A stretch of 64,000 nt of DNA from an uncultured Candidatus Rokubacteria bacterium (lineage in GTDB: Bacteria; Methylomirabilota; Methylomirabilia; Rokubacteriales; CSP1-6). The DNA lies in assembly GCA_963771355.1 (NCBI GenBank), contig CAVYTA010000006.1, positions 32,001-96,000 on the forward strand. The letters run 5' to 3'. Both the position numbers and the translations under genes were made by a program. Shown here piece after piece: positions 16,650 to 44,372 of this stretch. Each line of letters opens with the position of its first letter. Positions within the stretch are counted from its first letter, which is position 1. The notes below the pieces were generated by a model. The model saw nothing but the letters and a program-made list of their open reading frames with translations. It searched no databases and was not told the origin of the DNA.

Positions 16650-17436
16650 TCGCGTAGCGCAGCAGGGGGGCGGGGAACGAGCGCTTGGTGGCGAGCCGGA
16701 TGGCGCGGTCGAGGGCCACCCAGCACATGACCCGCGAGAACAGGAACTCCTGGCGCCCGCTGCGCACTTCCCAGATGCGTTCGTCCGGCCGGCGCCAGTT
16801 CTCGCTACCCTCGAGATGGGGCTAGGCCTCCTCGGGCAGCGAGTGACGGCCGTCGAGCCCGTACATGACCTGGAGGGAGCCGTCTGGCGCGAGCTCCTCG
16901 CAGCGGGCCATCACCCAGCGCATGAAGGCGGCCGCCTCGTCCGTGTAGCCGAGGCGCATCAGCCCGTAGAGAGTGAATGACGAGTCGCGGAGCCAGGTGT
17001 AGCGATAGTCCCAGTTGCGCCCGAACCGTGCTGCCGCGAGGTGAGCAGCTTCAGCGTCAAGGCCGAGCGGTTCACCATTTCGCGCCAGCGGCCGGTAGGT
17101 GTTGCGCCGGACCTAGCGCGCCAGAAGTCACCGCCCGCTTGAAGGCGTCACTCGAATAGTCGGGCTGCGCCGAGGGCGACGGCTCCTGGGGGAGCACCAC
17201 CTCGAGGACGAACAGGCTGAGGTGTCGGCACTCAGGTGTGAACTCGGCCAGGGCCGCGCCGTACTCGAATCTGGAAGCGGCCGCCGCGCTCCGCGTCACG
17301 AGGGCGGCGAAGACCGACGGAGAGTCGAAGTGGGGCAGGCAGAGGAAATCGATGGAGCCGTCATGCCACCAGGGCGACGGTGTTGAGGTCGCCGATGACG
17401 CCGTACTCGCCGATCGGCGCGTACTGATTTCAGCAT
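16650..17436 (-). pseudogene. Glycoside hydrolase family 15 (trehalase/glucoamylase-like) pseudogene with several internal deletions
   Basis: Collinear fragments [80 protein letters not shown] in changing frames. Confidence 0.85.
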
Positions 17437-18677
17437 TGCCCCGAGCCTAGCACGGGGGCGGGCTGGGGGAGGGGGCTCGGCTCCCTCGATTCCTTCGCGT
17501 CCGCCACCCACGGCAGCGCCATGAGGGCCCAAGCGACCATGACGACCTCCGAGTCGCCGAAGTTGTACTCGGAGAGGCCGCCACGAGAAAGCCCACGATC
17601 GCGGCCAGGCTGCCGACCACGAGCGCGCGCTCGCGCGCCGCAACCTCGGGCAGCCGTCGTAGCAGGCCGATGCCCTTGGCGACGAAGGCGGCCCAGATCC
17701 AGAGCCATGCCGCCAGGCCGAGCACCCCGCGCTCCACCAGGATCTGCAGCGGCGTGCTGTGCACGTGGCTCGTGCGCTTCTTAACCGCCTCCGGCAGCGC
17801 GTAGCTCGCGTATTCACGCTTGACCTCCCCCGGCCCCACCCCGAGCACCGGGTGCTGGCGCCACATCGTCAGCCCGCTGCGCCACATGTAGACCCGCTCC
17901 GTCACCGTGGGATCCTCGGGGATCGCCCATGGTCAGGACCCGCTGGCGCAGGTGCTGGGGACCGGCCAGTGCGGCGAGACCGAGCACGATGAGGCCGCCG
18001 AGCAGGAGCCACCGCCCCTTGCGGGTCATGGGGAGCAGCGCCAGCACACCCGCGGCGAATCCCATCGAGGCCCCCCGCGTGTAGGTCCCCAGCAAGCCGG
18101 CGAGCGAGACCAGCCAGGGGAGGATGGGCCAGCGCGGGAGCGCGGCTCCCGGCAGGAGCCGCGGCAGGGTGGCCAGCAGGACCAAGCTGAGCACGCCCGC
18201 CAGTGTCATGTAGATGCTGAAGAAGCCGCGGGCCCGATAGCAGCGATGGTAAAGCCAGGCGGGGGGGCCGTAGTCGGCAGCCGGGCCGGGGCAGGCGACT
18301 GTCTGCATCAGCCCGACGATCGCCGCGACCGTCATCACGAGGAGAAGGGCGGAGAGGAATCGGTGGCCGTCAGCGGGGCCGGGGAGCGCGTCGACGATCA
18401 CGTAGAGCGCGGCCACGAGCAGGAGGCCCTTGCAGGCGCCGAGCGCGGTGACCGGGTGCCCTGAGGCGAGCGCCGAGACGAGGCTCACCGCGCTGAAGGC
18501 CAGGACGGGCTGCCAGAGCGGCCAGCGCGCCGCAGCGCGCGCCTCGGGATCGCGCAGGCGCCAGAGCCAGAGGAGGGTCAGCAGGGCCAGCGCGGACTGG
18601 GAAAGCGTGATCGACGTCCCGAGGCCCACGACGAATGCCCCGAGGACGGCGTGGCGGAGCATGGGCAAGTCGATCAC
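17430..18677 (-). CDS. O-antigen ligase (WaaL/Wzy_C)-family membrane protein (frameshifts near 17920 and 17580)
   Basis: Multi-TM; RARGFF, TYTRG, ERVYMW...HPVLGVGPG, HVHSTPLQILVERGVLGL. Confidence 0.88.
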
Positions 18678-18689
18678 ACCGGGGTCGGG

Positions 18690-19820
18690 CTACCCTCGAC
18701 CGTAGGCGGCCAATGTCTGGCTCGCTGTCTTTTCCCACGAAAAGCCGCGGGCTCGCTCGAGGCCGCGCCGAGACAGCTCATGCCGCAAGGCCTCGTCCTG
18801 CCAGAGTCGCACCATGCCCTCGGCAATCGCATCGACGTCGCATGGGTCGACCAGCAAGCCGGCATCTTCAACGACCTCCGGCAGTGACGACACGTTGGAC
18901 GCCAGGACCGGTACGCCGCAGGCCATCGCCTCCAGCACCGGCAGCCCGAATCCCTCGTACAACGAGGGGTACACGAAGCCGCGCGCCCCATTGATGAGCG
19001 CCGGCCGGGCGCCGTCGGGGACGTAGCCGAGATACGACAGCCGCCCGGCTCTCTGCAGCCGCTCGATGCGGCGAGCGACTTCATCGCTCCCCCAGCCGTC
19101 GGCGCCAGCGATGACGAGCGGACCGATCCGGTTCCCGGCCAATTCGACCGCCTGCAAGAGCCGCAGCAGATTCTTGCGGGGCTCGAGCGTCCCCATGAAG
19201 AGCAAATAGCCGTGCTGCGCGAGATTCCAATGCGACAGGACCTTCTGTATATCCTCGGCTGGCAATGGCCGGAACGATCCGGCCGCCGCAAGGGGAACAA
19301 CACTGATGCGCTGGGAACGAACGCTGAATTGCTTGACGATGTCGTCCCGCGTCGCTGCCGAGTCCGCTAGGATGTGATCCGCGATGTCCAGAGAACGCGC
19401 GATTTCGTGCGTCATGCTGTTGACTCGGGCCCGTGGGTGCCATTCGGGGAACAGCACGACTGTCATGTCATGAATCGTCACCACCCGCCGTGCGCGCTTC
19501 ACGGCATGCGTGAATACGTAATTCGTCGCATGGTAGACATCGAAGGCGCCGATTCTTCGTTCGACGGGCGTGCCCAGGCCGAGCTTGCGCTGCGCGCGAA
19601 AGAGGAGAAAGCGGAATCGCCCCTCGCTCACCACGTGGACGCACTCCTCGGGAAACACGGGCGCCTCCCGCATGCGAAGAGAGCGGGTCAGGCGCGGGTA
19701 CATGACAACGTATTCGTGGGCCGGCCCCACGCGCGCGAGGGCCTTGATCAGGTGGTACGTGTACTGACCGATCCCCGCCCTGGGGGGTACGAGAGGGTAG
19801 CCGTCGAGCGCGATCTTCAC
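18690..19820 (-). CDS. GT4 (glycosyltransferase group 1)
   Basis: [31 protein letters not shown]. Confidence 0.95.
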
Positions 19821-20909: not shown

Positions 20910-21944
20910 CTACTTCCGCTGGCGAGCGTAGTCCGCGAGGAGCTCGGCCATCCGGCGCGCCCCGGCAGGGGAGAAGTGGCCGTCCCGCGGCAGCCAGAGC
21001 GAGGCATCGGCGGTCGTCAAGGATGAGGTGTCGAGCAAGGGCAGGCCGTAGGCCTTCGCCGTCGTCCGCAAGATCTCGTGGTCGCGTCGGCTGAAGGGCG
21101 AGATCGGCGCGATCACGAGCTGGGCACCGTGCTTCGCCGCCACGTACTGCATGTAGGCGATGGCCTTCTTCGTGTAGCGCCACTCGAGAGAGTTCTCCTC
21201 GTCGGGACCCTCTTCCGCGGGCGCGGCCAGGGCCGGGCCGACGCCGAGGCGCCACTTGAGCCAGCGGTAGGCCTTGACCACGTAGGATGCGCCCCCCAGG
21301 CGCCGGATCAGCGAGGGCGAGCGGGCTTGCGTCACGTCTGTCCGGGGCGGATACCGGATGCTCTCGACGGGCTGGTCGATGAAGGCCTGCATCTCCGCCC
21401 GAGTAAGGAACACCGTGAGGTCCGAGATGTCGTTGAACGAGAACATGTAGAAGACGACGCGCGGCCGGAAGACCCCGATGTACTCCGTGAGGAGGTACGC
21501 CTCCTGGAAGCTGCTGTCCCCCTGTCGGGCCAGGTTGACCACGGACCGTCCAGTGAGCTGCTCCAGGAAGGAGCCGACGGTAAATTCGAAGTCCACCCCG
21601 TGCCCGTAGATGAAGGAGTCTCCGAGCAGCATGATGTCGGCCGGGATAGCCGTCCGCTTGTTGCGGAACCCATATGCATCGGTCTCGTGGGTCCAGACGT
21701 ACCCGTTGTAGTACATCTGGGTCTTCATGTTGGGGATCATGAAGTGTATCCGGAGCTTGGGGTCCAGGTAGTAGATCCCTCCCGGGCGGGTGTGATACTT
21801 GCTCAGCACCCCGTTGGCGAAGACATCGCCGAGCAATGAGGGCTGGGCCCGAAGGACGAGCTCCAGGCCCAGCAGGCAGATGCCGGTCGAGACGATGAGC
21901 AGAAGGGCCCTGACCAGAACGGGGCGGAGCGAAGCGCTCAGCAT
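20910..21944 (-). CDS. Membrane-anchored SGNH-fold protein (AlgX/AlgJ/DltD-like)
   Basis: N-terminal TM helix; GDSF (block I), FND (block III), DGHF (block V). Confidence 0.88.
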   Translation of the reverse strand: MLSASLRPVLVRALLLIVSTGICLLGLELVLRAQPSLLGDVFANGVLSKYHTRPGGIYYLDPKLRIHFMIPNMKTQMYYNGYVWTHETDAYGFRNKRTAIPADIMLLGDSFIYGHGVDFEFTVGSFLEQLTGRSVVNLARQGDSSFQEAYLLTEYIGVFRPRVVFYMFSFNDISDLTVFLTRAEMQAFIDQPVESIRYPPRTDVTQARSPSLIRRLGGASYVVKAYRWLKWRLGVGPALAAPAEEGPDEENSLEWRYTKKAIAYMQYVAAKHGAQLVIAPISPFSRRDHEILRTTAKAYGLPLLDTSSLTTADASLWLPRDGHFSPAGARRMAELLADYARQRK

Positions 21945-22071
21945 GTCGGAGGCAGCCGCCCGCTCTGATTGGCCGCCCGCGACACCGGCCTCGGAATGGA
22001 TCTCCGGGGCCGGCCCCGGAGGCGTGCCGCCGGCGTCCCCGCCTGACCCTCCCTGCGGAGCAAGGCCCCGC

Positions 22072-22248
22072 CTAGAACAGCGCGTAGATGAGCAACCCGG
22101 CCTTCGTCCCGCCGAGGACCACCAGGATACCGAGGATCGTGATCGCCGCGAAGACCGGCATCAACCACCACATCCGGTAGGTTCTGAGGAAGTAGACGTA
22201 CTCGCTCAGGATGCCGGACCGACCGGCCTTTCTATTTCGCCTGCCCAT
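22072..22248 (-). CDS. Small single-TM protein, SxtK/DUF5989-like, C-terminus LIYALF
   Basis: 58 aa, MGRRNRKAGR...FLRTYRMWWLMP-TM-GLLIYALF*; ATG overlaps the upstream TAA (TAATG). Confidence 0.85.
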   Translation of the reverse strand: MGRRNRKAGRSGILSEYVYFLRTYRMWWLMPVFAAITILGILVVLGGTKAGLLIYALF

Positions 22249-22661
22249 TAGCTCTGCCTCCTGAAGCTTGCCGCGTCCAGCGGGGGAACGTCCGCCAGCA
22301 TGCTTTCCTTCTTCCGGCACGCCTCGAAATTCCTCTCGAGACGATTCATGCCAAAGAGTCGGAGCATCGAACCAAGCCCGGCGATGACCACGGCGTACAG
22401 CACCAGCACGATCACCCACGAGACGACGTGCCCGATCGCCAGCGACAGCAGCATGAAGACCAGGAACACGTCACGGCCGATGGCACGGTAGGCAACGAAC
22501 CCCGCGAAGGCTACGGAGGCCAAGACGATCAGCACGAGACTCGGCGTCCGAGGCCCGAAGAGCCACCAGGTTCCCGCGGCAATCACGGCCAGCCCGATGC
22601 CGAGGACCAGGAGCTGCTGCTTTTCCGCTGCCGGCCCGCCCGAAAGATTCGGCGTTAGCAA
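22248..22661 (-). CDS. SxtJ-like membrane protein
   Basis: TTG abuts the carbamoyltransferase stop; 3-4 hydrophobic helices; LRLFGMNRL...RRQS tail; position between carbamoyltransferase and SxtK-like ORF. Confidence 0.78.
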   Translation of the reverse strand: MLTPNLSGGPAAEKQQLLVLGIGLAVIAAGTWWLFGPRTPSLVLIVLASVAFAGFVAYRAIGRDVFLVFMLLSLAIGHVVSWVIVLVLYAVVIAGLGSMLRLFGMNRLERNFEACRKKESMLADVPPLDAASFRRQS

Positions 22662-24484
22662 TCAAGCCTCCTGCGCGTCCACGGGATTCTCGGTCCGTGG
22701 CGGCGCCGCGAGATCGACTCCGGGCTTGACCATGACGCATGTATCAAGAACCAGGACATCGATCCCCGTCATCAGGAAACAGCGCAGGGCGTCCTCATGG
22801 TCGCAGACAATGGGCTCTCCGCGGACGTTGAAGCTGGTGTTGACGATCATGGGGCACCCCGTGAGCTTGTCGAACTCGCGGATGATCCGGTAGAACATGT
22901 CGTTCCGCTCCTCGGTCACCGTTTGGAGCCGAACCGAATAGTCCACGTGGGTAATGGCCGGGACCGGCGACCGGACCACCCGCAGCTTGCCGAGTCCTTG
23001 ACGTTCCGTGTTCTCCTTCTCCCCTCTCCGATGTGCGCTCAGCAGCGGCATCACGATGAGCATGTACGGGCTCGGGATGTCGATGTCGAAGTACTCCTTG
23101 ACCCGTTCCTCGAGCACCGCCGGGGCGAAGGGCCGGAAGGACTCGCGGTACTTGATCTTCAGGTTGATGCGCGACTGGTTCGCCGGGTCGCGTGGGTCCC
23201 CCAGGATGCTCCGCGCTCCGAGGGCCCGGGGGCCGAATTCCATGCGGCCGTGACAGAAACCCACCACATGCCCGGCCGCGAGCCACGTGGCCACCTTCAC
23301 GGGCAGCTCGTCTTCGGGGAGCTTCGTGTACTCGACCCCGATCGAATCCAAGAACGGGATGACCTTTGCATTGTCGATGCGGGGCCCGAGATAGGCACCC
23401 CGCATGCGGTCAGTCCCGATCTCCCTCCGCGGTTGTCCCATGACCTGATGCCACACGGCGAGGGCCGCGCCGATGGCGCCCCCCGCGTCACCCGCGGCCG
23501 GCTGGATGTAGATGTCCCTGAAACTCCCGTCGCGATAGATGGCACCATTGCCCACGCAGTTCAGCGCGACGCCCCCCGCCATGCAGAGCGTGTCGCGCCC
23601 CGTCATCTTCCTGGCCGTCCGGGCGAGTCGGAGCATGACCTCCGAGGCGATGTGCTGGACCGAGGCCGCCATGTCCATGTGGAACTGATCAAGCGCTTCA
23701 TCTGGCTGCGCGCCGGCCGCCCCAGATGCGCGGTCAACCGGCCGTTGATCATGCTCAAGCCGTGGGTGTAGTTGAAATAGTCGAGGTTGAGCGCAATCGA
23801 TCCGTCTTCCTTGAGGTCGAGCACTCGGCCCAGGAGCTTGTCGAGATATTTGGGCTCTCCGTACGGGGCCAGGCCCATCACCTTGTACTCGTCGGAATTG
23901 ACCTCGAAGCCCAGGTACTGGGTCATGGCGGAGTAGAAGAGCCCGATCGAGTGGGGGAAGCGCAGCTCCTTGATGAGCCGGATCGTATTGCCGTGCCCTT
24001 CACCGATGGACGCGGTCGCCCACTCACCGACTCCGTCGGCAATGACGATGGCCGCCTCCTCGAACGGGCTGCAGAAGAACGCCGAAGCGGCGTGAGACTC
24101 GTGGTGCCGGCTGAAGAAGATGTCCCCCTGGAAGCCCGGGATGCTCTCTTCGATCACCTTCGGCATCTTGAGTTTCTGCTTAATCCAGAGGGGAATCGCC
24201 CGCTTGAAAGACCCATAGCTCTGGAACGGATACTCCAGATACGTCTGGAGGAGCCGACTGAAGGTCAAGACGGGTTTGTCGTAGTAGGCGACGCAGCTCA
24301 GATCGGCCGCCTTGATACCGGCTTCCTCCAGGCAGAAAGCGACCGCGGCGGTGGGGAAGCGCTCATCACCCTTGCGGCGGGAAAACCGCTCCTCCTCGGC
24401 CGCCGCGACCAGCTCCCCATCCCGCAGGAGGCAGGCCGCGCTGTCGTGATAGAGGGCGGAGACCCCCAGGATATAAGTCGGCAT
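22662..24484 (-). CDS. O-carbamoyltransferase, NodU/CmcH/TobZ family (frameshift near 23708)
   Basis: HDSAA, EEERFSR, HHESHAAS, EYKVMGLAPYG, GGVALNC, GRMEFGPRALG, RESFRPFAP, NTSFN. Confidence 0.95.
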
Positions 24485-25551
24485 CAAGGGCTTCCGAACC
24501 GGGATTGGCCTACTGCCGAGGCTTCTTTCCTCCCAATCACGACGAACAGCCCACCCTCCGTGTCCTCGAACATCTGGTGCACCTGGCTCAGGAGGCGATC
24601 CAGGTGCGACCCGCGCGGCTCGGGGTCGAAGAGAGAGCGCCGATAGTCCAGCGAGAATCGCGAGCCCAGCACGGTGCTTGGCAGGGCGCGGACGAACCGG
24701 ATCCCGTTCTGCTCGAACCAGCCGAGCACCTCATCGAGCGTGTGCAGCGACTCGTGTGGGTTGCGGTACTGGTCCATGAACCACGCGCGGCGCTTGTCCC
24801 GCGTGACGCCGTATTCGTTGATGTACGGATCGAGCGAGGCCACCCGCTCCCCCATCAGTCCGACCAGCCCGCGGCGGACTCGCGTCTTCAGACGGGCGTA
24901 GCGATTGTACAACCCGACGAGCAAATATCCGCCCGGGGTGACGAACGGCACGAGTCCGGCCAGTCCCCCGCGGGGATCCGCGGTGTGATGCAGCACGCCA
25001 GTGCAGATCACGACGTCGAAGCGTCCGGGCTGCAGCGGCAGCCGGAACAGGTTCATCTGGGCGAACGCCACATTGGCGAGCTCGTTGGCCCCCCGGAACC
25101 GCTCGGCCAGACGAAGCGAGTTCCAGCAGAGGTCCACCGAGAGCACCCTGCGACCCCCGATGCTGAGAAAGTTGCCAAGCTGCCCGGTCCCGCAGCCCAC
25201 TTCGAGCACCGTCGCGTTCGGCCGGATCGACCGGTTCAGCATCTCCGGAAATCCGCGGGCCACGCTCTTCTGGATCAGGGAGCCGACGTCATCCGTACCT
25301 TCGTAGTTGGGAAACGGGGTCTCCTCATAGAAGGCCTTGATCACCTGGGTGACATCGCCGGCAATGGGCTCGTGGGGCACAAAAGCCCTGAGGATGCCCG
25401 CTTCGATCGGGAACACGACCGTCGGATCAGCCTCGCTGACGTACGCATCTCCGACCCGACCCATTCGCTGTCCGGTCCGAGGACACCTGAGGAGATCCTC
25501 GATGCCGCTGACCCGCATGCCCCCGGTTCGAGCGATCGCCGGACTAGTCAT
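24484..25551 (-). CDS. Class I SAM-dependent methyltransferase with Trm112-like N-terminal segment
   Basis: LLRCPRTG, FYEETPFPNY, LEVGCGTGQ, GVLHHT, WFMDQY; TGATG coupling to the carbamoyltransferase. Confidence 0.9.
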   Translation of the reverse strand: MTSPAIARTGGMRVSGIEDLLRCPRTGQRMGRVGDAYVSEADPTVVFPIEAGILRAFVPHEPIAGDVTQVIKAFYEETPFPNYEGTDDVGSLIQKSVARGFPEMLNRSIRPNATVLEVGCGTGQLGNFLSIGGRRVLSVDLCWNSLRLAERFRGANELANVAFAQMNLFRLPLQPGRFDVVICTGVLHHTADPRGGLAGLVPFVTPGGYLLVGLYNRYARLKTRVRRGLVGLMGERVASLDPYINEYGVTRDKRRAWFMDQYRNPHESLHTLDEVLGWFEQNGIRFVRALPSTVLGSRFSLDYRRSLFDPEPRGSHLDRLLSQVHQMFEDTEGGLFVVIGRKEASAVGQSRFGSP

Positions 25552-27403: not shown

Positions 27404-28582
27404 TCATTTGATGCTGTCCTCGTACTCGATCGGCGAGCGCCCGATACCCAGGATGTGATCGGCGAGTTTGACCGCCTCCTCCACTGTCGCCACGTTGAAC
27501 GCGGCGGTATCGAGGTGCAGCGCCTCGCCGTCGAATCCGAGGCGATCGGGTCGAAGCTTGATGGGCGGGCGCGGTTGGATACTCCGCGACTCGATCACGT
27601 CAGTGAGCCACGCGCTGAGGCGGCGATCATCAGCCGCCGATGTGCGAAGCGTGTCCAACGCGAGCTCGCCGGCATGTGGCAAAGCCGCAAGGCAGTGCCT
27701 GAGCAGCAGCTCACGGTCCAGGCGCAGGTCGGCGTCGCGCGGAAACAGCGCCGCCTTCGCGAACTGAAAGGAATCCGCCACCGGCACTTCGGGGAAGATG
27801 GGCAAGTCGGGAACGGTCGGGTGATGCGGCAGGCGACCCTCGTCGTTCAATCGCCGGAAGTCTTCGTCGAGGGGGGATCGACCACGGTGGAAGAGGTTCG
27901 CGATGCCAAAACTGCTGCCCGACGACCCCGCAATGTGCATCGGGACGCTGATCGACGGATATTGTCCGGCCAGGTAGCCGAGGGCGAAACCGGAGAACAC
28001 GTCAGGGTACCTATTCGCAAACACACGACCGGCGGCGCGGCGCAACCGGTCGATCAAGCTGCGGTGCACGACCGCGGTGTAGAGCATCGGCAGCCGCACA
28101 TACGACACCTCGAATCGAAGCACCGCCGCGATCGTCGATCTCGCGTCCAGCATCTTCAGGGTCCGCCGGAGCGGAAGTCGGAGGTAGTTTGCCGCGCCCG
28201 CCATGTTGATGTCGGGCCATGAGTAGAACGATGCCTCCCACCGAACCACCGGGGTTCTCAGCCGGTCCAGCAGGCGATCCAGTTCCGCGAGCGCGAACGG
28301 CATCAGCCCGTCGTCGTCGCCAAGCAGGAGAACGAACTCACCGCGGGCTTCGGAGACGGCGAGCTCCCAGTTATCGCTCATCGCGAGCGACCGCGGAGCG
28401 CGGATGTGACGGACGCGTCGCGACGCGACCTCGCCGACGACGGCGCGCGTCCGATCGGTGGTGCCGTTGTCGCAGACGACGATCTCGTAGTCGTCGAAGT
28501 CCTGATTGAGGCAGGTCGCCAGCGCGCAACGCAGGGTGTCCGGCCGCTCGCGGGTTGGGATGACGATGCTGAAGCGCGGCAT
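27404..28582 (-). CDS. GT2 glycosyltransferase
   Basis: FSIVIPT, VVCDN, LGDDD; TGATG coupling. Confidence 0.9.
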   Translation of the reverse strand: MPRFSIVIPTRERPDTLRCALATCLNQDFDDYEIVVCDNGTTDRTRAVVGEVASRRVRHIRAPRSLAMSDNWELAVSEARGEFVLLLGDDDGLMPFALAELDRLLDRLRTPVVRWEASFYSWPDINMAGAANYLRLPLRRTLKMLDARSTIAAVLRFEVSYVRLPMLYTAVVHRSLIDRLRRAAGRVFANRYPDVFSGFALGYLAGQYPSISVPMHIAGSSGSSFGIANLFHRGRSPLDEDFRRLNDEGRLPHHPTVPDLPIFPEVPVADSFQFAKAALFPRDADLRLDRELLLRHCLAALPHAGELALDTLRTSAADDRRLSAWLTDVIESRSIQPRPPIKLRPDRLGFDGEALHLDTAAFNVATVEEAVKLADHILGIGRSPIEYEDSIK

Positions 28583-29403
28583 CAAGAGGGCGGCATCGAT
28601 CGGCGGCGGAGCCACCCGCCAACCCAATGCGAGGCGCCGCCGGACAGAAGGCCCGCGCTTTCGTTGAACGGCCAGCGCGGCGGCTCGAACGCGAAGTCCG
28701 GCCGGCGAGCGAGAAAGCCGCGCGCCGCCTCGGCTGGGTTGTTCCAGTCCCAGTCTGCGCCGGCGCGGGGTGAATCGGCCAGCTGCTCCATGTCGCCGTC
28801 CGCCACCACGACGTAGGATCCGTCGCTCACGAGATCGGCGTAAGCGTCGAGCTCGGCGGTGACGTGCGCCTTGGTGTGATTGGAGTCGAGAAAGACCATC
28901 ACGCGGTCGCCGGGCTTGACGAGGGCGCGCACGCGTTCGACCGTCTCGCGCTCGACCGAGCTGCCTTCGACGAGCGTGATCAGGGGGGAGAGGAAGTGCG
29001 CTTCGATCGCGGCACGGTTGTGTGGCCGAATCTGGACGTCCACGCCGATGACGCGGCCGGTGCCGAGCAGACGGCAGAGTGACGCAAGAAACACGAGCGA
29101 TCCGCCGTGCGCCACACCCGTCTCGACGATCACGTCGGGCCGCACCAGCCAGATCGCCTCCTGCGCCCGGATCAGATCATCAGGGAGCTGGATGACGGGA
29201 CGGCCGAGCCAGCTGAACGTGTAATCGTACTTTGCCTCCCACGCTGTACGCACCCAAGCACGAGCGACCGCGTCGAACGCGTCCGGTGATGCGAGGGGAT
29301 GCGTGATGCGGCCGGCTCCGGAGATGATGGTGACCTGCAGCGTGTCGAAGTCCACGAGCACCTGCCGCACCCGGTTTGCCTTTCGCTCAGGGCCGGAAGT
29401 CAC
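28582..29403 (-). CDS. CmcI-family (cephalosporin hydroxylase / sugar O-methyltransferase-like) protein
   Basis: FSWLGRPVIQLPDD, PDVIVETGVAHGGS, LDSNH. Confidence 0.9.
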   Translation of the reverse strand: MTSGPERKANRVRQVLVDFDTLQVTIISGAGRITHPLASPDAFDAVARAWVRTAWEAKYDYTFSWLGRPVIQLPDDLIRAQEAIWLVRPDVIVETGVAHGGSLVFLASLCRLLGTGRVIGVDVQIRPHNRAAIEAHFLSPLITLVEGSSVERETVERVRALVKPGDRVMVFLDSNHTKAHVTAELDAYADLVSDGSYVVVADGDMEQLADSPRAGADWDWNNPAEAARGFLARRPDFAFEPPRWPFNESAGLLSGGASHWVGGWLRRRSMPPS

Positions 29404-29917
29404 GATAGTGGCAATCCTTGTCGGAGATGGTGATGTCGGGCAGCGGCCATGTTATGGCGAACCGCGGATCGTTCCAGCGAACACCTCGTTCGGCGGCGGC
29501 CTCGTAGAATCCGGTCATATGGTAGACCACTTCGGTGTGGTCCTCGAGCGTTTGGAAGCCGTGCGCGAAACCTTCGGGGACGTAGAGCATCGCGCACGAC
29601 GACGCGCGCAGCTCGACGGCGAGCCAGCGGCAGTAGGTCGGAGAGTCGGGTCTGAGGTCGATGATCACATCGTAGATCGCGCCGCGGCCGCAGCGCACCA
29701 GTCGCGTCTGCGCATGCGGCGCCGCCTGCATGTGCAGGCCGCGAAGGGTGCCGCGCCTGCGGTTGTAGGACAGGCCGCTCTGCGCAAGCGACGCGTTCAG
29801 CCCATGCGCCGCGAATTCCCTCGCACACCACGTGCGCGTGTACGCGCCGCGATCGTCCGAGCGCGGCTCCGCTTCGACGATGAAGGCGCCGGCCAGGTCG
29901 GTGGGTGTGAAGATCAC
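29387..29917 (-). CDS. rfbC: NDP-4-keto-6-deoxyhexose 3,5-epimerase (RmlC cupin)
   Basis: DDRG, GTLRGLH, DLRPDSPT, GFAHGFQTL, GVRWNDP; GTGA overlap with the upstream ORF. Confidence 0.92.
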   Translation of the reverse strand: MIFTPTDLAGAFIVEAEPRSDDRGAYTRTWCAREFAAHGLNASLAQSGLSYNRRRGTLRGLHMQAAPHAQTRLVRCGRGAIYDVIIDLRPDSPTYCRWLAVELRASSCAMLYVPEGFAHGFQTLEDHTEVVYHMTGFYEAAAERGVRWNDPRFAITWPLPDITISDKDCHYRDFRP

Positions 29918-30512
29918 GCGGCGGGCTCCAGCAGCACGACCAGGACGTCGCACCCGAGCTCGCGCAACGGCAGCTCGATCTCACCGGCATAGATCGAGTT
30001 CGCGACGAGGAGGGTCGCCACCGGTGGGCCCGCGAGCGCAGCCGGTGCCACGATCGGCTGCCCCGTTCCCGCGATGAACCGATCCTGCCTGCGTGGGTTG
30101 ATGTCCACGACGGCGCTCACGAGATCGCGTAAGGCGTCGGGATGATTGAGAAACGTGCCGCCCTGTTTCGCCGGCGCCCCAGAGGACGCACCCCCCGGTG
30201 GGGACGCATGTGCGAGGCGAGTCCGCCAAGCGTCGCGCCACCGCGGCCAGGCTCGTAGCACGTTCTCGAGGAGGTCGACGGCAGCGTCTGTCCGTGCGGC
30301 AGCCTCAGTCGGCTCGCGGTCACGGCCGTCCAGCCACATTCATCGGTCCGAAGATCCCCCGTGAAGTACGTCAGGCGATGCCGCACGTCGGCAAACGTGT
30401 CGAGCGCCGCAGCCGAGCGGGCCAAGGCGGCGACCTCGCAGCCGCTCTCGAGCAGACGTCGGGCGAGGGGAGCGCCGACGAAGCCGCCGGCTCCCGTCAC
30501 GGCCACGCGCAT
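29914..30512 (-). pseudogene. Deletion chimera: N-terminus of an NAD-dependent epimerase/reductase joined to the C-terminus of a second sugar C-methyltransferase
   Basis: MRVAVTGAGGFVG...TGDLRT to about 30345, then VLWGA / GGTFLN...VVDINPRRQDRFIAGTG...NSIYAGEI. Confidence 0.75.
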
Positions 30513-30514
30513 GA

Positions 30515-31731
30515 TCACATGACACTCGGCGACGGTATCGGCACGATGAACTGCCCGCCGCGACGGCGGTATTCGGCCTGCTGCTTCATGATTTCGTCTC
30601 GGAAGTTCCACGTGAGCAGCAGGACATCGTCGGGCATCGCCTCGAGGAGGTGTTCCGGCGGATAGATCCGGACCTTCGTCCCCGGCATGTACCGGCCCTG
30701 CTTGCGTGGGTTGCGGTCCACCGCGAAGTCGAGCACGTCCTCGCCGACGCCGATGACGCTCAACAGGGTCGTGCCTTTCGCGGCGGCGCCGTACGCCGCC
30801 AGGCGTCGACCGGACGCCTTGCGCTCGCGAAGCAGGCCGGAGAGCTCGAATCGGAGAGCGTCGACGCGCGCGGCGAACGCCGCATAGGTCTCGGGATCGT
30901 GAGGACGCCATGCCGCCTCTTCTTCCATCATCGCGAACACGGCGTCATTCGGCCGTCCGCGTGCCGCAGCCGTCACCCGGATGGAGCCGCCGTGAATGCT
31001 CACCCGCTCGACGTCGATGACGCGTAGCCCATGCCGGGCCAGCAAGGCGCGGAGCGCGGTGAGCGAGTAGTAAAAGACGTGCTCGTGGTAAATGGTGTCG
31101 AATTCCAGGCGATCCAGCAGATCGCGGACGTACGGCGTCTCGATCACGAACACGCCATCGTCTTTGAGCAGGCGGACGACGCCCGTGACGACGTCATTGA
31201 TCTCTGGCACATGCGCCATCACGTTATTGGCGACGACGACGTCGGCACGAATGCCCTCGCCGACGAGCTGGTCGGCGAGGTCGCGGCCGAAGAATGCGGT
31301 GCGGGTCGGCACGCCCGCCCGTTCGGCCGCTGCGGCGGCAGCGCGCGCAGGGTCGATCCCGAGTACCGCAACTCCGGCCTGTCTGAAGTGCCGCAGCAGA
31401 TAGCCGTCGTTACTGCCGATCTCCACCACGAGTGCGTTCGCGCCGAGCGTCCGGCTCTGGAGGACGCGCTCGGCATACGCCTGCGCATGCCGAAGCATCG
31501 TGTCGGAGAAGGACGACAGGTACGCGTAGTCGGCGAAGAGCACGGCCGGATCAACGGTCTCGACCAGCTGACGAGGGCACACGCCGGACACAGGGCCACG
31601 TCCAGCGGATAGCGGGGGTCGGGAACGTCCAGCTCGCTCGCCGAACGCAGCGCGTTGGCAAGGGGGGTGGACCCGAGCGAGAGAACAACCGGCAGATCCG
31701 ACTTTCCGCATCCGCGGCACGCAACGCCCAT
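30515..31731 (-). CDS. NDP-hexose C-methyltransferase (NovU/TylC3-type; frameshift near 31570)
   Basis: CRGC...LGSTPLAN...CPAC Zn motif, [26 protein letters not shown]. Confidence 0.92.
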
Positions 31732-32714
31732 CAAGCGGTCGTCCCGAGGAATTCACGATACCACGACAGCGCGAGCGAGAGGCCGGCGGGGTGGTCGAAC
31801 TGGGCCCGCCAGCCGAGCACCCGCTGGGCGCGAGTCGGATCCAGGTACTGGTCCGGAATCTCATGGTTGGCGTTGCCGCGAATCTCCGGGACGAGGTCGG
31901 CGCGATCGCGATCGCCAGAATCTTGGTCACGAGCTCCAGTACGCCGATAGGTTCCGCGTGGCCGAAGTTGAACGCAACCCCGGCCAGACCGCGATCGAGC
32001 GCGAGTGCTTCCGCCAGCCTAAGGTAGGCTGCCACTCCGTCTTGAACGTACAGATAATCACGCAGGGGCCGTCCGTCGCTCCGAATCACGGGAGGCTCTC
32101 CGCGCAGGACCGAACGGATCGTGCCGGGCACGAGGCGGTTCCAGTTCATATCGCCGCCGCCGTACAGATTCGCGCAGCGGCTGATGACGACGGGCAAGTG
32201 GTACGTGATCGCATAGGACTGCGCGATCAGATCCGCGCATGATTTGCTGACGTCGTACGGATACCGTCCCTGAAGCGCCATGTCCTCCGTATACGGAAGC
32301 GGTCGCGTGCGATCCGTACGCCTTGTCGGACGAAGCGACGATCACTTGCCTGACCGCCGGGCTTCGCCTGGCTGCTTCCAGCACCGCCCATGTGCCGCGG
32401 ATGTTCGTATCGAGGGTCGAGATTGGATTTCTGCCGGCGATGCCAACGACCGCCTGCGCAGCGAGGTGAAACACCGTATCGACTTCGTACTCGCCCAGAG
32501 CGCGTTCGACGAGTGCCTGATGTCGGACAGCGCCCCTGACGACGCGTACACGATCGAGCCACCCGCGGCGCACCAGCTCGCAGTCGGGGACCCAGTCGCG
32601 CACGAGGCAGACGACTTCCGCGCCCTGCTCGACGAGGGCGGGCACGAGCCAGCCGCCGAGAAATCCGGTGGCGCCGGTGACCAGGGTGGCCCGATCGCGC
32701 CAAAACGAGCTCAC
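31731..32714 (-). CDS. CDP-glucose 4,6-dehydratase-like extended SDR (frameshifts near 32297 and 31910)
   Basis: [38 protein letters not shown] and TGATG coupling on both sides. Confidence 0.88.
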
Positions 32715-33481
32715 GGCCAGATCTTCCACGGCGCCCGCCCGCTCGACCACAGTGACTCCAGCTGCCTTTTGTCGCGGAGGGTGTCCATCGGCAGCCAGAA
32801 CGAATCGTGGCGATAGGCCATGAGCTCCCCGTCCGCCGCCAGCCGCTCGAGGGGGTCGCGCTCCCACTGCGTGTGGTCCCCTTCGATGTAGTCGAGCACA
32901 CGAGGCTCGAGCACGAAGAACCCGCCGTTGACCCAGCCTTCGCCAAGCTGCGGTTTTTCGGAAAAGGTGGCGACCCGATCGCCGGCGAGCTCGATGCCGC
33001 CGAACCGCGCGGGCGGCCGAACCGCGGTAACTGTCGCGAGCTTGCGATGGCTACGATGGAAAGCGACCAGTGCGTGCAGGTCGAGGTCGGCGAGGCCGTC
33101 GCCGTAGGTCATCAAGAAGGTGCCGTCACCCACCCACCGGCGCAGTCGTTTGAGCCGGCCGCCGGTCATTGTCTCGTTTCCCGTCTCGACGAGGTGCACG
33201 ACCCAGTCTTCCGAGGTCTGGTCGTGACGTTCGATGCGGCGGTCGCGGGTGAACACGCTGACGCTGCCCTCGAGGGAAACCGTGTCGACAAAATACTGTT
33301 TGATCACGTCGCCACGGTAGCCGAGGGCGATCACGAACTCGCGGCAGCCCCCCGCCGTGTAGTGCTTCATGATATGCCACAGGATCGGCCGTCCGCCGAC
33401 CTCGACCATGGGCTTCGGGCGCAGCTCGGTTTCCTCGCTGAGCCGGCTGCCGACCCCCCCGGCAAGTATGACGACTTTCAT
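32711..33481 (-). CDS. rfbF: Glucose-1-phosphate cytidylyltransferase
   Basis: [14 protein letters not shown]...[37 protein letters not shown]. Confidence 0.95.
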
Positions 33482-33884
33482 GTCGAGGAGCGATTGTATC
33501 GCAGAGGCGCGGGACTTGCTTCCTTCGCGTCCGGCACCCACGGTAGCGCCATCAGGGCCCACGCGACCAGCACGATCTCCGAGTCGCCGAAGTTGTATTC
33601 GGAGAGGCCGGCGACGAGAAAGCCCACGATCGCGGCCAGGCTGCCGATTACGAGGGCGCGCTCCCGCGCCGCATTCGCGGGCAACCGTCGTAGCAGGCCG
33701 ATGCCATTGGCGATGAAAGCGACCCAGATCCAGAGCCACGCGGCCAGACCGAGCGCCCCCGCGCTCCACCAGAATACATGTGGCGCAGCGGGCTGACGAT
33801 GTGGAGCGGGCACCCCCTGCTTGGGAGTGGGGCCGGGGGAAGTCAAGCGCGAATACGAGCGCTACGCGCTGCCGGCGGCGGCCA
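33478..33884 (-). pseudogene. Degenerate second copy of the O-antigen ligase 3' end with an internal inversion
   Basis: 33520-33772 matches 17490-17742; 33775-33884 reads YMWRSGLTMWSGHPLL...KREYERYALP on the + strand (inverted copy of about 17785-17890). Confidence 0.85.
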
Positions 33885-34660
33885 CGCCCGGCTCGCTGCA
33901 GCTTCTCGATGTGGCGAGCGACCTCATCGCTCCCCCAGCCGTCAGCGCCGACGATGACGAGCGGACCGATCCGGCTCCGCCAGCTCGACAGCCTGCAAGA
34001 GACGCGGCAGATTCTTCCGGGGCTCGATCGTCCCCATGAAGAGCAGATAGCCGTCCTGCACGAGCCCCCAAGCCGACAGGACCTGCTGTATCTCCGCGGC
34101 CGGCAATGGCCTGAACGACTGGTCCGCAGCGAGGGGAACCGCACTGATGCGCTCGGAACGAACACTGAAGTGCTTGATGATGTCGTCTCTCGTCGCCGCC
34201 GAGTCCGCGAGGATGTGATCCGCGATCTCCAGAGAACGCGCTATCTCGTGCGTCATGCTGTTGACGCGGGCCCGTGGGTGCCACTCGGGGAACAGCACGA
34301 GCGTCAGGTCATGAATCGTCACCACCCGCCGGGCCCGCTTCACCGCATGCGTGAACACGTAGTTCGTCGCGTGGTATACGTCGAAGAACCCGATGCTTCG
34401 TTCGACAGGAGTGCCGATGCCGAGCTTGCGCTGTACCCGAAGCCGGAGAGCGCGGAACCGCCCCTCGCTTACCACGCGAACGCACTCCTCGGCAAATACG
34501 GCACCTCCCGCATGCGAAGGGATCTGGTCAGTCGCGGGTACATGACAACGTACTCGTGGACTGGGGCCACGCGCGCGAGAGCCTTGATCAGATGATACGT
34601 GTACTGACCGATCCCCGCCCTGGGAGGCACGAGAGGGTACCCGTCGATCGCGATCTTCAT
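33885..34660 (-). pseudogene. Truncated, frameshifted second copy of the GT4 at 18690..19820
   Basis: [24 protein letters not shown]...; collinear with 19042-19820, lacks the C-terminal EGFGLP region. Confidence 0.88.
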
Positions 34661-42756: not shown

Positions 42757-43488
42757 TCACGACTTCTCGTACGCCGCGATCACCTCGTCGGGGTCCCCCT
42801 CCATCACGACCCTGCCTCCCGCGAGCCAGACAACCCGGTTACAGAGTGCGCGGATCTCCTTGAGCGAATGAGACACGATGACGAACGTCGTCCCCTGCCG
42901 CCGAAATTCTTCGAGGCGCTCGTAACACCTTGCCTGGAAGTGATTGTCCCCGACGGCGAGGATCTCATCGATCAGGAGGATATCAGGACTCAAGTGGACT
43001 GCCACCGAGAAACCAAGCCGAGCGACCATCCCGCTCGAATAGGTCCGGAGCGGTTCGTTCAACGAAGCCTCGAGTCCGCTGAACGCCACGATGGCGTCCA
43101 TCCGCGCCGCCACCTCGCCGCGAGTCAGCCCCATCAGCACCCCATTCAGGACGATGTTCTCGTGGCCGGTCAGCTCGTAGTGGAAGCCCGCGCCCAGCTC
43201 GAGGAGCGGTACCACACGGCCATGTACCTCCACCGTGCCTGCCCCGGGCTCGATGACGCCGGCGATCAGGGCGAGAAGTGTGCTCTTGCCGGAGCCGTTC
43301 GCGCCGACGATGCCCACCGTCTCGCCTTGCCGCACGTCTAGAGAAACGTCGTCCAGGGCGAGGAAGCGATCCGCACGCATGCTCCGGATGAGATCAGGTA
43401 GGTGGAGCAGAGACTGCTTGAGGCCGCGGCCCAGGTGTCGATGGCGCGGATACTCCTTCGTGACGCGGTCAACCCGGACGACCGTCAT
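42757..43488 (-). CDS. wzt: Polysaccharide export ABC ATPase without C-terminal carbohydrate-binding domain
   Basis: Walker A GANGSGKS, YSSGM signature, LLIDE, VSH; ATGA overlap with wzm. Confidence 0.93.
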   Translation of the reverse strand: MTVVRVDRVTKEYPRHRHLGRGLKQSLLHLPDLIRSMRADRFLALDDVSLDVRQGETVGIVGANGSGKSTLLALIAGVIEPGAGTVEVHGRVVPLLELGAGFHYELTGHENIVLNGVLMGLTRGEVAARMDAIVAFSGLEASLNEPLRTYSSGMVARLGFSVAVHLSPDILLIDEILAVGDNHFQARCYERLEEFRRQGTTFVIVSHSLKEIRALCNRVVWLAGGRVVMEGDPDEVIAAYEKS

Positions 43489-44285
43489 ACGAGCTCGGCG
43501 AATCGAGGAGACAGGGCGCGGTAGACGAGCGTACCGACCGCGAGGCAGACGACGCCGGTCAGATAGGCGGCTCCGACGAGTAGCGGGTCGAGATGGCCGT
43601 CCAGCAAAAGCTTCTGCCAGGCCCGGATGAGCGGTGCCACCGGATTCAGCTTGATCCAAACGTGATACTGCACCGGGACTACCGAAACCGAGTACATGAT
43701 GGGAGTGAGGAAGAACAGGACCTGGATGAACAAGGCGACGAGCCGCTCGAGGTCGCGGACGAAGACATTGATCGAGGAAACCGCCAATGCCACACCGTAG
43801 AGGGTGAGGAACTGAGCGAAGACCAAGAGGGGGATGCCTGGCAGCCACCACCAAGATGGGGCGCGACCATACCACAGCAGCGCCAGGACGGTGACCGGGA
43901 TCGTCAGCAAAAAGTGGATCGCATCGCTCAGGACGCTGCTCACGATGAGGACGTTCCGCGGGAAGCGGACTTTCTTGATGAGCGAGGCGTTGGCAATGAA
44001 AGCCATCGGCGCGTTCCCGACCGAGCTCACGAGCCACTGCCACGGGAATAGCCCTGCGATCAGGAAGAGCGGGTACGGATAGCCGGGGATCTCGAAGCGG
44101 AGGAAAACGCCGAGCGCCACGTAGTAAACGGCGGTGAACAGCAGGGGATTGGCCACCGACCACGCGTAGCCCAGCCAGCTGTTCTTGTAGCGGACCTTCA
44201 TGTCCTTCTGTACGAGAATCAAGATCAGGTCCGTGGGGTATCCACGGTGCCGGGGAAAGGATACGGCGAAGGTCCGCGTCGTCAT
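43485..44285 (-). CDS. wzm: Polysaccharide export ABC permease
   Basis: RYKNSWLGYAW, KKVRFP, RDL, FFLTPIMY, LNP. Confidence 0.93.
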   Translation of the reverse strand: MTTRTFAVSFPRHRGYPTDLILILVQKDMKVRYKNSWLGYAWSVANPLLFTAVYYVALGVFLRFEIPGYPYPLFLIAGLFPWQWLVSSVGNAPMAFIANASLIKKVRFPRNVLIVSSVLSDAIHFLLTIPVTVLALLWYGRAPSWWWLPGIPLLVFAQFLTLYGVALAVSSINVFVRDLERLVALFIQVLFFLTPIMYSVSVVPVQYHVWIKLNPVAPLIRAWQKLLLDGHLDPLLVGAAYLTGVVCLAVGTLVYRALSPRFAELV

Positions 44286-44372
44286 CCAACGCGAATTGTA
44301 CACGCGTATAGTCAGGGCGTAAGCAGGTTCTTGGTGGCGCGAGCGGCTGCCGCCATGTCAATATGAGGCCTC

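What the first reader, a model, noticed from the sequence alone, without database searches (positions are those of the whole stretch)
20910..25551. Candidate carbamoyl relay for cell-surface glycans: carbamoyltransferase, DltX-like tyrosine peptide and SGNH protein, with no MBOAT
Seen: a coupled operon (TGATG, abutting and TAATG junctions) of methyltransferase, NodU/TobZ-type O-carbamoyltransferase, SxtJ-like membrane protein and 58-aa SxtK-like peptide, followed by a TM-anchored SGNH protein, inside a Wzm/Wzt polysaccharide locus. The peptide has a very basic N-terminus (MGRRNRKAGR), one TM and ends LIYALF-COOH. Established: in D-alanylation of teichoic acid the DltX C-terminal hexapeptide (FIYNEF) carries a Tyr that shuttles the acyl group from the MBOAT DltB to the SGNH-fold DltD. 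Inference: the same Y-x-x-F-COOH motif, predicted N-in/C-out topology and SGNH partner occur here, but the donor is a cytoplasmic carbamoyltransferase. This suggests carbamoyl-P to carbamoyltransferase to Tyr of the peptide to SGNH Ser to an exported glycan, with the SxtJ-like protein as scaffold or conduit. It would assign a function to SxtJ/SxtK-like proteins. The membrane-crossing step is unexplained.
Basis: partly seen in the sequence, partly recalled or inferred. Interest (0 to 1): 0.88.

Follow-up and report, generated by a model that had tools for sequence, protein, structure and literature searches.

The report
Tyrosine-tailed carbamoyl relay without MBOAT
A soil bacterium's surface-sugar region carries a carbamoyl-adding enzyme, a small membrane protein, a 58-residue membrane peptide ending in a conserved tyrosine tail and a membrane-anchored esterase-fold enzyme, a set found across many bacteria that likely passes a carbamoyl group across the membrane on the tyrosine, although no step of that relay has been shown.

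Summary
The carbamoyltransferase (CT) is split by a one-base gap, very likely an assembly error, since three independent DNA runs have the base. The SGNH gene is not translationally coupled (127-nt gap). The set is a divergent member of the sxtI-J-K-L-type module (CT, SxtJ, DUF5989, SGNH). A search blind to the tail found Tyr at -4 in 99 of 100 complete hits, and in 56 of 56 peptides from CT-selected loci. An SGNH lies within 3 kb in 50 of 94 CT+peptide loci, against 2 of 20 control CTs. Genome-wide, related SGNHs occur in 25 of 37 peptide-positive and 10 of 97 peptide-negative genomes. No MBOAT lies in any cassette locus. Best reading, about 55%: a DltX-like carbamoyl-tyrosine relay. The scan noted this idea seven times before on other DNA. 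Added here: controls, a divergent subfamily, and a tractable copy in Sinorhizobium meliloti 1021 (SM_b20469-72).

The parts
24484..25551 (-). Class I SAM methyltransferase; optional member of the cassette
   Evidence: Pfam Methyltransf_11 E 1e-15; close homologues (E 1e-64 to 1e-82) inside 3 of 40 phylum cassettes (L054, L074, L077)
22662..24487 (-). NodU/TobZ-family O-carbamoyltransferase of the SxtJ/DUF5989-linked clade; one-base gap near 23700 is very likely an assembly error
   Evidence: Carbam_trans_N and _C; family motifs present in both pieces; missing base present in run contigs; clade membership through relatives L081/L082
22248..22661 (-). Divergent SxtJ: two TM helices, then one long amphipathic-then-hydrophobic helix and a basic tail
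   Evidence: E 3.8e-13 against an independent SxtJ profile; AF2 model of relative L054, pLDDT 90.8
22072..22248 (-). DUF5989 (SxtK-like) 58-aa single-TM peptide ending LLIYALF
   Evidence: 48 close homologues, 47 ending LLIYALF
22084..22086 (-). Codon of Tyr55 (position -4), the proposed carrier residue
   Evidence: Tyr at -4 in 114 of 114 distinct locus peptides and 99 of 100 tail-blind hits
20910..21944 (-). TM-anchored SGNH protein with Ser110 (GDS), block II Gly, block III Asn and D-G-H323
   Evidence: Pfam Lipase_GDSL_2 above cut-off, ALGX match; alignment columns; N-terminal TM
43485..44303 (-). Wzm permease (context)
   Evidence: ABC2_membrane E 2.6e-12
42757..43490 (-). Wzt ATPase (context)
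   Evidence: ABC_tran; nearest NCBIfam models TagH and Wzt/RfbE, below their cut-offs
17447..19820 (-). GT4 glycosyltransferase and a frameshifted O-antigen-ligase-like gene downstream (context)
   Evidence: a similar ligase-like gene lies about 3 kb past the SGNH in relative L078

Best explanation
This is a carbamoyltransferase-SxtJ-DUF5989-SGNH gene module that likely works as an MBOAT-free relay, in which the enzyme would load a carbamoyl group onto the peptide's conserved tyrosine and the membrane-anchored SGNH protein would take it on its serine and pass it to an acceptor outside the inner membrane, here probably the exported surface glycan. Steps: (1) The CT makes carbamoyl-adenylate from carbamoyl-phosphate and ATP (established for the TobZ/GdmN family, recalled; the fold match is shown). 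(2) The CT is predicted to sit on the inner leaflet through a clade-specific hydrophobic helix pair, and SxtJ's long helix would thin the membrane or guide the tail (inferred). (3) The unusually hydrophobic tail would dip in far enough for the Tyr to be carbamoylated as an aryl carbamate (inferred; the weakest step). (4) The tail would hand the group to the SGNH serine, as DltX does for DltD (analogy). (5) The SGNH, which varies far more between loci than CT, SxtJ or the peptide, would set acceptor specificity (inferred).
For: Tyr -4 was not replaced in any in-frame complete peptide: 114 of 114 locus peptides, 56 of 56 complete peptides from CT-selected loci found with a tail-blind profile, and 99 of 100 tail-blind library hits, the exception having an unrelated, probably frameshifted tail. 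Position -6 varied in 11 of 114. The window's subfamily changed P-7 and F-6 but kept I-Y-x-x-F. The tail fits the published F-x-Y-x-x-F shuttle motif (PMC12148441 passages); MBOATs found here end ESFIYFQF and MPFIYFQF. SGNH within 3 kb: 22 of 38 phylum loci, 28 of 56 cross-phylum loci, 2 of 20 control CTs. Genome level: 40 of 52 peptide-positive vs 11 of 99 peptide-negative; 25 of 37 vs 10 of 97 after removing profile seeds and two unpublished genomes. The SGNHs keep Ser in 77 of 78 and His in 72 of 78, and 66 of 68 have an N-terminal hydrophobic anchor. No MBOAT was found in 164 loci searched (positive control L220). Linked CTs form one clade (120 leaves, support 0.991, no controls inside), with a helix-pair motif in 116 of 121 vs 0 of 20 controls. 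9 of 10 genomes whose CT lacks an adjacent peptide have one elsewhere. S. meliloti keeps SGNH, SxtJ, peptide and CT as a compact four-gene unit. Lyngbya wollei has a truncated sxtI, lacks sxtL and makes no carbamoylated product (PMC3037375 passages); this fits, but also fits rival 1.
Against: About half of cassettes have no SGNH within 3 kb (16 of 38; 28 of 56), and Pfam scans of 156 neighbours showed no SGNH among the 25 commonest families in either scan. 8 of 12 dispersed peptide copies have no CT, SxtJ or SGNH in the fetched stretch. Conservation does not single out the Tyr: F-1 is kept in 113 of 114 and I-5 in 111 of 114. The peptide profile and one MBOAT C-terminus match only over the 6-residue tail (probability 0.7%), so homology with DltX or MBOATs is not shown. 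Linked SGNHs are very diverse and not one clean clade. The only solved full-length match, CgnD (E 2e-11), comes from a CT-containing cluster and is a slow leader-peptide hydrolase (PMC10070186 passages). Pseudomonas WapO is proposed to carbamoylate LPS core (PMC8005017 passages), with no such partners named in the passages read. The CT has no TM or signal peptide, and about 21 loci have only a short one-helix SxtJ, too small for an MBOAT-like tunnel. The module often lies outside glycan loci.
Confidence: 0.55

Rival explanations
1. CT, SxtJ and the peptide form an inner-face membrane complex that carbamoylates a lipid-linked glycan or small molecule directly in the cytoplasm. The tail is structural, and the SGNH is an optional periplasmic editing enzyme (decarbamoylase or esterase), as proposed for SxtL.
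For: CT-SxtJ-peptide linkage is tighter (SxtJ at 73 of 80 CT-selected loci, peptide at 56 of 80) than SGNH linkage (about half). It needs no membrane crossing. Papers propose SxtI with J and K as the transferase and SxtL as a decarbamoylase, untested (PMC2679770, PMC2885083 passages). CgnD is a hydrolase. The clade-specific hydrophobic helix pair fits a membrane-bound acceptor equally well.
Against: It does not explain why a predicted outward-facing tail ends in the shuttle motif at the free C-terminus with no Tyr-to-Phe exchange in over 200 sequences. Nor does it explain why SGNH presence tracks the peptide genome-wide while control CTs mostly lack SGNHs.
Confidence: 0.27
2. The tail docks non-covalently in the SGNH active site or another partner to recruit or regulate it; the Tyr carries nothing.
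For: The whole tail is conserved, not only the Tyr. The DltX tail peptide binds DltD with micromolar affinity (PMC13653941 section 6), so binding alone could conserve such a motif.
Against: In the two characterised systems the motif's Tyr is covalently acylated. A pure docking role gives the strictly linked CT no route to the SGNH.
Confidence: 0.12
3. The peptide is a DltX-like acyl carrier for an MBOAT or AT3 encoded elsewhere, and the CT is a fellow traveller.
For: G000 has two MBOAT loci.
Against: The one MBOAT whose C-terminus could be read has its own tail and SGNH; no AT3 was found in G000; the peptide follows one CT clade and SxtJ across many phyla.
Confidence: 0.04

Closest known systems
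DltB-DltX-DltD (teichoic acid D-alanylation)
   Same: A separate single-TM microprotein of about 50 aa ending in the Tyr hexapeptide, plus a TM-anchored SGNH protein.
   Different: No MBOAT and no carrier protein; the donor would be a soluble ATP-dependent CT. The peptide has an extra amphipathic N-terminal helix and a more hydrophobic tail (mean hydropathy of the last 12 aa 1.4, vs 0.07 and 0.29 for two MBOAT tails). No homology shown beyond the motif.
PatA-PatB and AlgI/AlgJ/AlgX-type MBOAT-SGNH O-acetylation
   Same: Tyr motif and SGNH partner; the linked-SGNH profile matches AlgX and AlgJ (E 7e-14 and 5e-13).
   Different: There the motif is fused to the MBOAT and the donor is acetyl-CoA passing through a TM tunnel. 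Here the motif is on a free peptide and no tunnel-forming protein is present.
sxtI-sxtJ-sxtK-sxtL of the saxitoxin cluster
   Same: The same four gene types, listed in this order: CT, SxtJ, a 54-aa ORF and a GDSL protein.
   Different: Its acceptor is a small alkaloid; J and K are uncharacterised and SxtL is proposed to be a decarbamoylase. I did not compare Sxt sequences, so 'SxtK = DUF5989' rests on gene order, size and recall.
Stand-alone O-carbamoyltransferases TobZ, GdmN, NovN, VtdB, NodU, WapO
   Same: Same fold: TM-score 0.75-0.81 and about 32% identity for relative L054.
   Different: The solved enzymes were characterised without such partners (recalled). The linked clade has its own conserved hydrophobic helix pair; VtdB and NovN have a different segment there.
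Crocagin cluster CgnI (CT) and CgnD (SGNH-type hydrolase)
   Same: A CT and a related SGNH protein in one cluster.
   Different: CgnD slowly cleaves a leader peptide in vitro; SxtJ is not named in the supplement text searched (0 occurrences).

Membership tests
MBOAT-SGNH acyl-tyrosine shuttle systems (Dlt, PatAB) | An MBOAT protein as acyl donor | tested here: not met
   None in the window or in 164 loci searched (positive control)
MBOAT-SGNH acyl-tyrosine shuttle systems (Dlt, PatAB) | C-terminal F-x-Y-x-x-F hexapeptide after a TM helix | tested here: met
   Family consensus PFIYTLF; the window variant LIYALF has Leu at the first position
MBOAT-SGNH acyl-tyrosine shuttle systems (Dlt, PatAB) | Membrane-anchored SGNH partner with intact Ser-His-Asp | tested here: met
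   adjacent in about half of loci
MBOAT-SGNH acyl-tyrosine shuttle systems (Dlt, PatAB) | Covalent acyl-Tyr intermediate passed to the SGNH Ser | not testable with these tools
   Needs biochemistry
MBOAT-SGNH acyl-tyrosine shuttle systems (Dlt, PatAB) | Tail binds the SGNH active site | not tested
DltX family | Sequence homology to DltX | tested here: inconclusive
   Pfam assigns DUF5989 only; no DltX sequence was compared; no significant PDB match for the peptide profile
DUF5989 (PF19451) | Score above the Pfam cut-off | tested here: met
   41.3 bits vs cut-off 27
SxtJ (PF19588) | Profile match | tested here: met
   No direct Pfam hit, but E 3.8e-13 against a profile of 67 neighbours; 65 of the 68 aligned members match PF19588
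NodU/TobZ O-carbamoyltransferases | Carbam_trans_N and _C domains with the conserved motifs | tested here: met
   fold match of relative L054. Below the NodU equivalog cut-off, so not NodU itself
sxtI-J-K-L-type module | CT, SxtJ, small ORF and GDSL/SGNH gene together | tested here: met
   against the gene tables
sxtI-J-K-L-type module | Orthology of the peptide with SxtK and of the SGNH with SxtL | not tested
   No Sxt sequence was fetched

The most novel reading that the evidence does not exclude
A third route for modifying molecules beyond the inner membrane, besides MBOAT-SGNH and AT3-SGNH. A soluble ATP-dependent carbamoyltransferase, docked by SxtJ, loads a tyrosine-tipped microprotein through a locally thinned membrane with no transmembrane tunnel enzyme. 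One such donor unit could feed several dispersed SGNH proteins per genome. SxtJ, SxtK/DUF5989 and thousands of orphan 'GDSL lipases' would gain a function, and SxtL would be a transferase rather than a decarbamoylase.
Probability: 0.4. Interest if true: 0.9.

Novelty: new variant of a known kind. Interest (0 to 1): 0.72.

Why it matters
The module is widespread: 4,803 cluster representatives match the tail-blind peptide profile, it is in 52 of 151 genomes of this phylum, and CT-selected loci come from many other phyla. Yet 'DUF5989' returns 0 papers, and the four terms carbamoyltransferase, SGNH, polysaccharide and carbamoylation together return 0. If right, it extends the acyl-tyrosine shuttle to carbamoyl chemistry and to a donor without a membrane tunnel, and it explains two long-unassigned genes. 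S. meliloti 1021 carries the whole unit and all four genes are non-essential in LB, so the question is directly testable with three point mutants.

Tried and rejected
Complex prediction (CT + SxtJ + peptide) was not available: nothing was folded, so there is no structural evidence for or against binding. Long open frames of 600-730 aa containing the peptide are shadow frames of the upstream CT gene, not fusions. Longer DUF5989 proteins: 120 of 302 were listed; none has an MBOAT or SGNH domain listed. The SxtJ-peptide and CT-peptide read-throughs I inspected are single-member clusters and probably sequence errors, so they were not used. The fold search of the SxtJ model gave Z up to 7.7, only generic helical hairpins. 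PDB searches with the peptide profile and with the window SGNH alone gave nothing significant. A genome-collection scan with the peptide alignment was not possible, so a CT alignment was used, which is also unbiased for the tail. The viral scan gave 2 loci and nothing informative. RNA-run contigs cover parts of all five genes, but contigs cannot show transcription or co-transcription. The SGNH tree is poorly resolved, with long branches. The S. meliloti 'symbiosis-essential' call for SM_b20472 was not used as support: 59 of 305 insertions survived against 44.6 expected, and the call rests on a run-of-losses test. Neighbours of dispersed SGNHs were mixed: of 10 loci, 1 is MBOAT-linked and 3 have glycan-type genes among the 28 neighbours scanned.


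Full report
OBSERVATION. Pfam gives a class I methyltransferase, Carbam_trans_N and _C, DUF5989 (41 bits, cut-off 27) and Lipase_GDSL_2/ALGX. The 137-aa protein has no Pfam hit but scores E 3.8e-13 against a profile built from 67 other neighbours; 65 of the 68 members of that alignment match SxtJ. The CT is split near 23700. Contigs from DNA runs X1, X2 and X10 and RNA run X16 carry one more base there, X6 shows nothing at that place, and relative L081 is one frame. The window has other split genes, so this is very likely assembly error. The SGNH starts 127 nt after the peptide. Wzm/Wzt lie about 17 kb upstream, beyond an opposite-strand amidohydrolase. The genome is an unnamed 5.5-Mb, 70% GC assembly, held by soil and rhizosphere runs. 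It has one DUF5989 copy, a second CT without these partners, two MBOAT loci, no AT3 and three SGNHs. The four other genomes of its genus that were searched lack the peptide, so the cassette is accessory.

THE TAIL. To avoid selecting for the motif I built a profile without the last ten residues and searched 1.84 billion representatives: 4,803 matched and the best 150 were listed. Of these, 100 end 8-12 residues after the profile and 99 have Tyr at -4. The other 50 are read-throughs, frameshifts or truncations and were dropped from that count; 20 of them still show the motif in place. In 80 loci chosen by CT similarity alone (best 80 of 599, from 2 of 64 parts of the collection), 56 held the peptide; all 56 complete peptides end [IV]YxxF and one was cut by a contig end. 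Over 114 distinct locus peptides, about half found with a tail-including Pfam model, conservation was Y-4 114, F-1 113, I-5 111, P-7 109, F-6 103. The Tyr is thus invariant, but the terminal Phe nearly so. The window's subfamily (47 of 48 homologues end LLIYALF) has changed -7 and -6 and kept the Tyr; its SxtJ (18% identity to the reference) and its CT helix motif have also diverged. Net charge averages +3 before the TM and about 0 after, which supports N-in. The last 12 residues are almost uncharged and more hydrophobic than two MBOAT tails found here. In this genome only the peptide and one MBOAT end in this motif.

PARTNERS. SxtJ was found at 73 of 80 CT-selected loci and at all 38 phylum loci that showed a CT. 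About 21 loci have a short, roughly 80-aa form with only the long helix and tail. Linked CTs form one clade apart from 20 control CTs. They share a hydrophobic helix pair (residues 70-104 in the L054 model) whose motif is in 116 of 121 linked vs 0 of 20 control CTs. SGNH within 3 kb: 22 of 38, 28 of 56, 4 of 24 for clade CTs without an adjacent peptide, and 2 of 20 controls; with full flanks 18 of 31, 22 of 38, 1 of 7 and 2 of 18. The SGNH profile was built from these loci but also finds a TesA-like and an MBOAT-linked SGNH, and a loose search added nothing in the controls. Genome-wide, strong matches to the linked-SGNH profile occur in 40 of 52 peptide-positive and 11 of 99 peptide-negative genomes. 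Without the 15 seed genomes and the unpublished G100 and G057 this is 25 of 37 vs 10 of 97. Kin are not independent, assemblies are incomplete and only 12 candidates per genome were scored, so the p-value is overstated. No MBOAT was found in 164 loci, while the same seeds found one in L220 at 4e-54. Of 10 genomes whose CT lacked an adjacent peptide, 9 have one elsewhere. 8 of the 12 copies stand alone, and 4 of 5 such genomes have related SGNHs elsewhere. Close relatives L078/L079 keep SxtJ-peptide-SGNH with no CT in the fetched stretch.

MECHANISM. Shown: gene content, conservation, linkage, intact catalytic motifs, SGNH anchors. Established elsewhere: the motif's Tyr is acylated and donates to an SGNH Ser in Dlt and PatAB (PMC12148441, passages); the DltX tail binds DltD (PMC13653941, abstract and section 6). 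From recall: TobZ-type enzymes form carbamoyl-adenylate and transfer it to a hydroxyl, and aryl carbamates readily carbamoylate serine hydrolases, so carbamoyl-Tyr is a chemically sensible donor. Inferred: loading of this Tyr, hand-off to the SGNH, and the acceptor. The crossing step stays open. SxtJ is predicted as two TM helices plus a 44-residue helix with basic residues at both ends, which fits a re-entrant, membrane-thinning element, and the hydrophobic tail could dip toward a CT anchored on the inner face. I put the relay at 0.55, direct cytoplasmic transfer with an editing SGNH at 0.27, non-covalent docking at 0.12 and an MBOAT in trans at 0.04.

WHAT IS KNOWN. The same four gene types are sxtI-J-K-L (PMC2679770, PMC2684587, passages). 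J and K are uncharacterised and SxtL is proposed to be a decarbamoylase (PMC2885083, passages). L. wollei has a truncated sxtI, no sxtL and no carbamoylated product (PMC3037375, passages), which fits either role for SxtL. Passages of PMC5132012 and bioRxiv 10.64898/2026.06.11.731795 added nothing mechanistic (bioRxiv supplements are closed). CgnD, the only full-length solved match, is a slow protease in a CT-containing cluster (PMC10070186, passages and supplement rows; one supplement file unreadable); this counts against assuming transfer. WapO is a putative LPS-core CT (PMC8005017, passages); PMC8319346 passages were uninformative. Searches gave no listing or passage that links DUF5989/SxtK to the shuttle motif; I read passages of only some listed papers, and the library lacks most subscription papers. 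I did not read the original 2023 Dlt mechanism paper.

A TEST SYSTEM. 43 plasmid records carry the peptide, 38 of them Sinorhizobium or Ensifer. In S. meliloti 1021 pSymB the unit is SM_b20469 (SGNH, divergently transcribed), SM_b20470 (SxtJ), SM_b20471 (peptide) and SM_b20472 (CT) (coordinates match PMC7268258 supplement rows; two of its files were not searched). All four are non-essential in LB. No glycan gene is annotated beside them in strain ABS7, whose table is incomplete.

VERDICT. It fails membership of MBOAT-SGNH systems (no MBOAT) but plausibly works like them: a new variant of a known kind. Seven earlier notes of this scan reached the same idea on other DNA; they are not independent support. 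Interest 0.72.

Noticed in passing
L215:9161-10993 (S. meliloti 1021 SM_b20472): PMC7268258 treats this gene as a second ornithine carbamoyltransferase (arcB2) in its arginine model, but it is a 610-aa NodU/TobZ-family O-carbamoyltransferase of the SxtJ-linked clade. The length column in that paper's symbiosis table is also shifted by one row.
   Followed up: partly
L203-L206, L210-L213: In several genomes, including a single 6.3-Mb chromosome (G153), the peptide gene stands alone far from CT-SxtJ, mostly among unrelated genes, which suggests a settled, core role for the module in those lineages.
   Followed up: partly
L052-L077 (type-B loci): A short SxtJ of about 80 aa without the first two TM helices goes with CTs that lack the C-terminal W-x-x-x-F-x-L-D tail seen in the others; the two features may interact.
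   Followed up: no
A7 alignment (SxtJ C-terminus): SxtJ has its own conserved C-terminal motif (SYW...R...RQF-COOH; FRRQS in the window), a candidate docking site for the CT.
   Followed up: no
L078:6424-9287: A close relative keeps SxtJ-peptide-SGNH but has a radical-SAM-like gene and a transposase remnant where the methyltransferase and CT lie in the window.
   Followed up: partly
L096, L097: Two CTs outside the linked clade are followed directly by a large SGNH-domain protein with no SxtJ or peptide in the locus: possibly a different CT-SGNH pairing.
   Followed up: no
window 17296-19820 and 33478-34660: The GT4 plus O-antigen-ligase-like pair appears a second time, in fragments, about 15 kb away; an old duplication or an assembly artefact.
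   Followed up: no
window 28582-34165: A CDP-sugar-type pathway (nucleotidyltransferase, dehydratase, C-methyltransferase, epimerase) and a CmcI-type O-methyltransferase suggest a heavily methylated branched-sugar glycan as the candidate acceptor.
   Followed up: no
window 22660: Contigs of runs X2 and X19 lack one base at the CT/SxtJ junction, giving an overlapping ATG start in place of TTG; a strain variant.
   Followed up: yes
L120:10225-10583: Two tandem DUF5989 peptides follow one SxtJ in a Planctomycetales genome.
   Followed up: no
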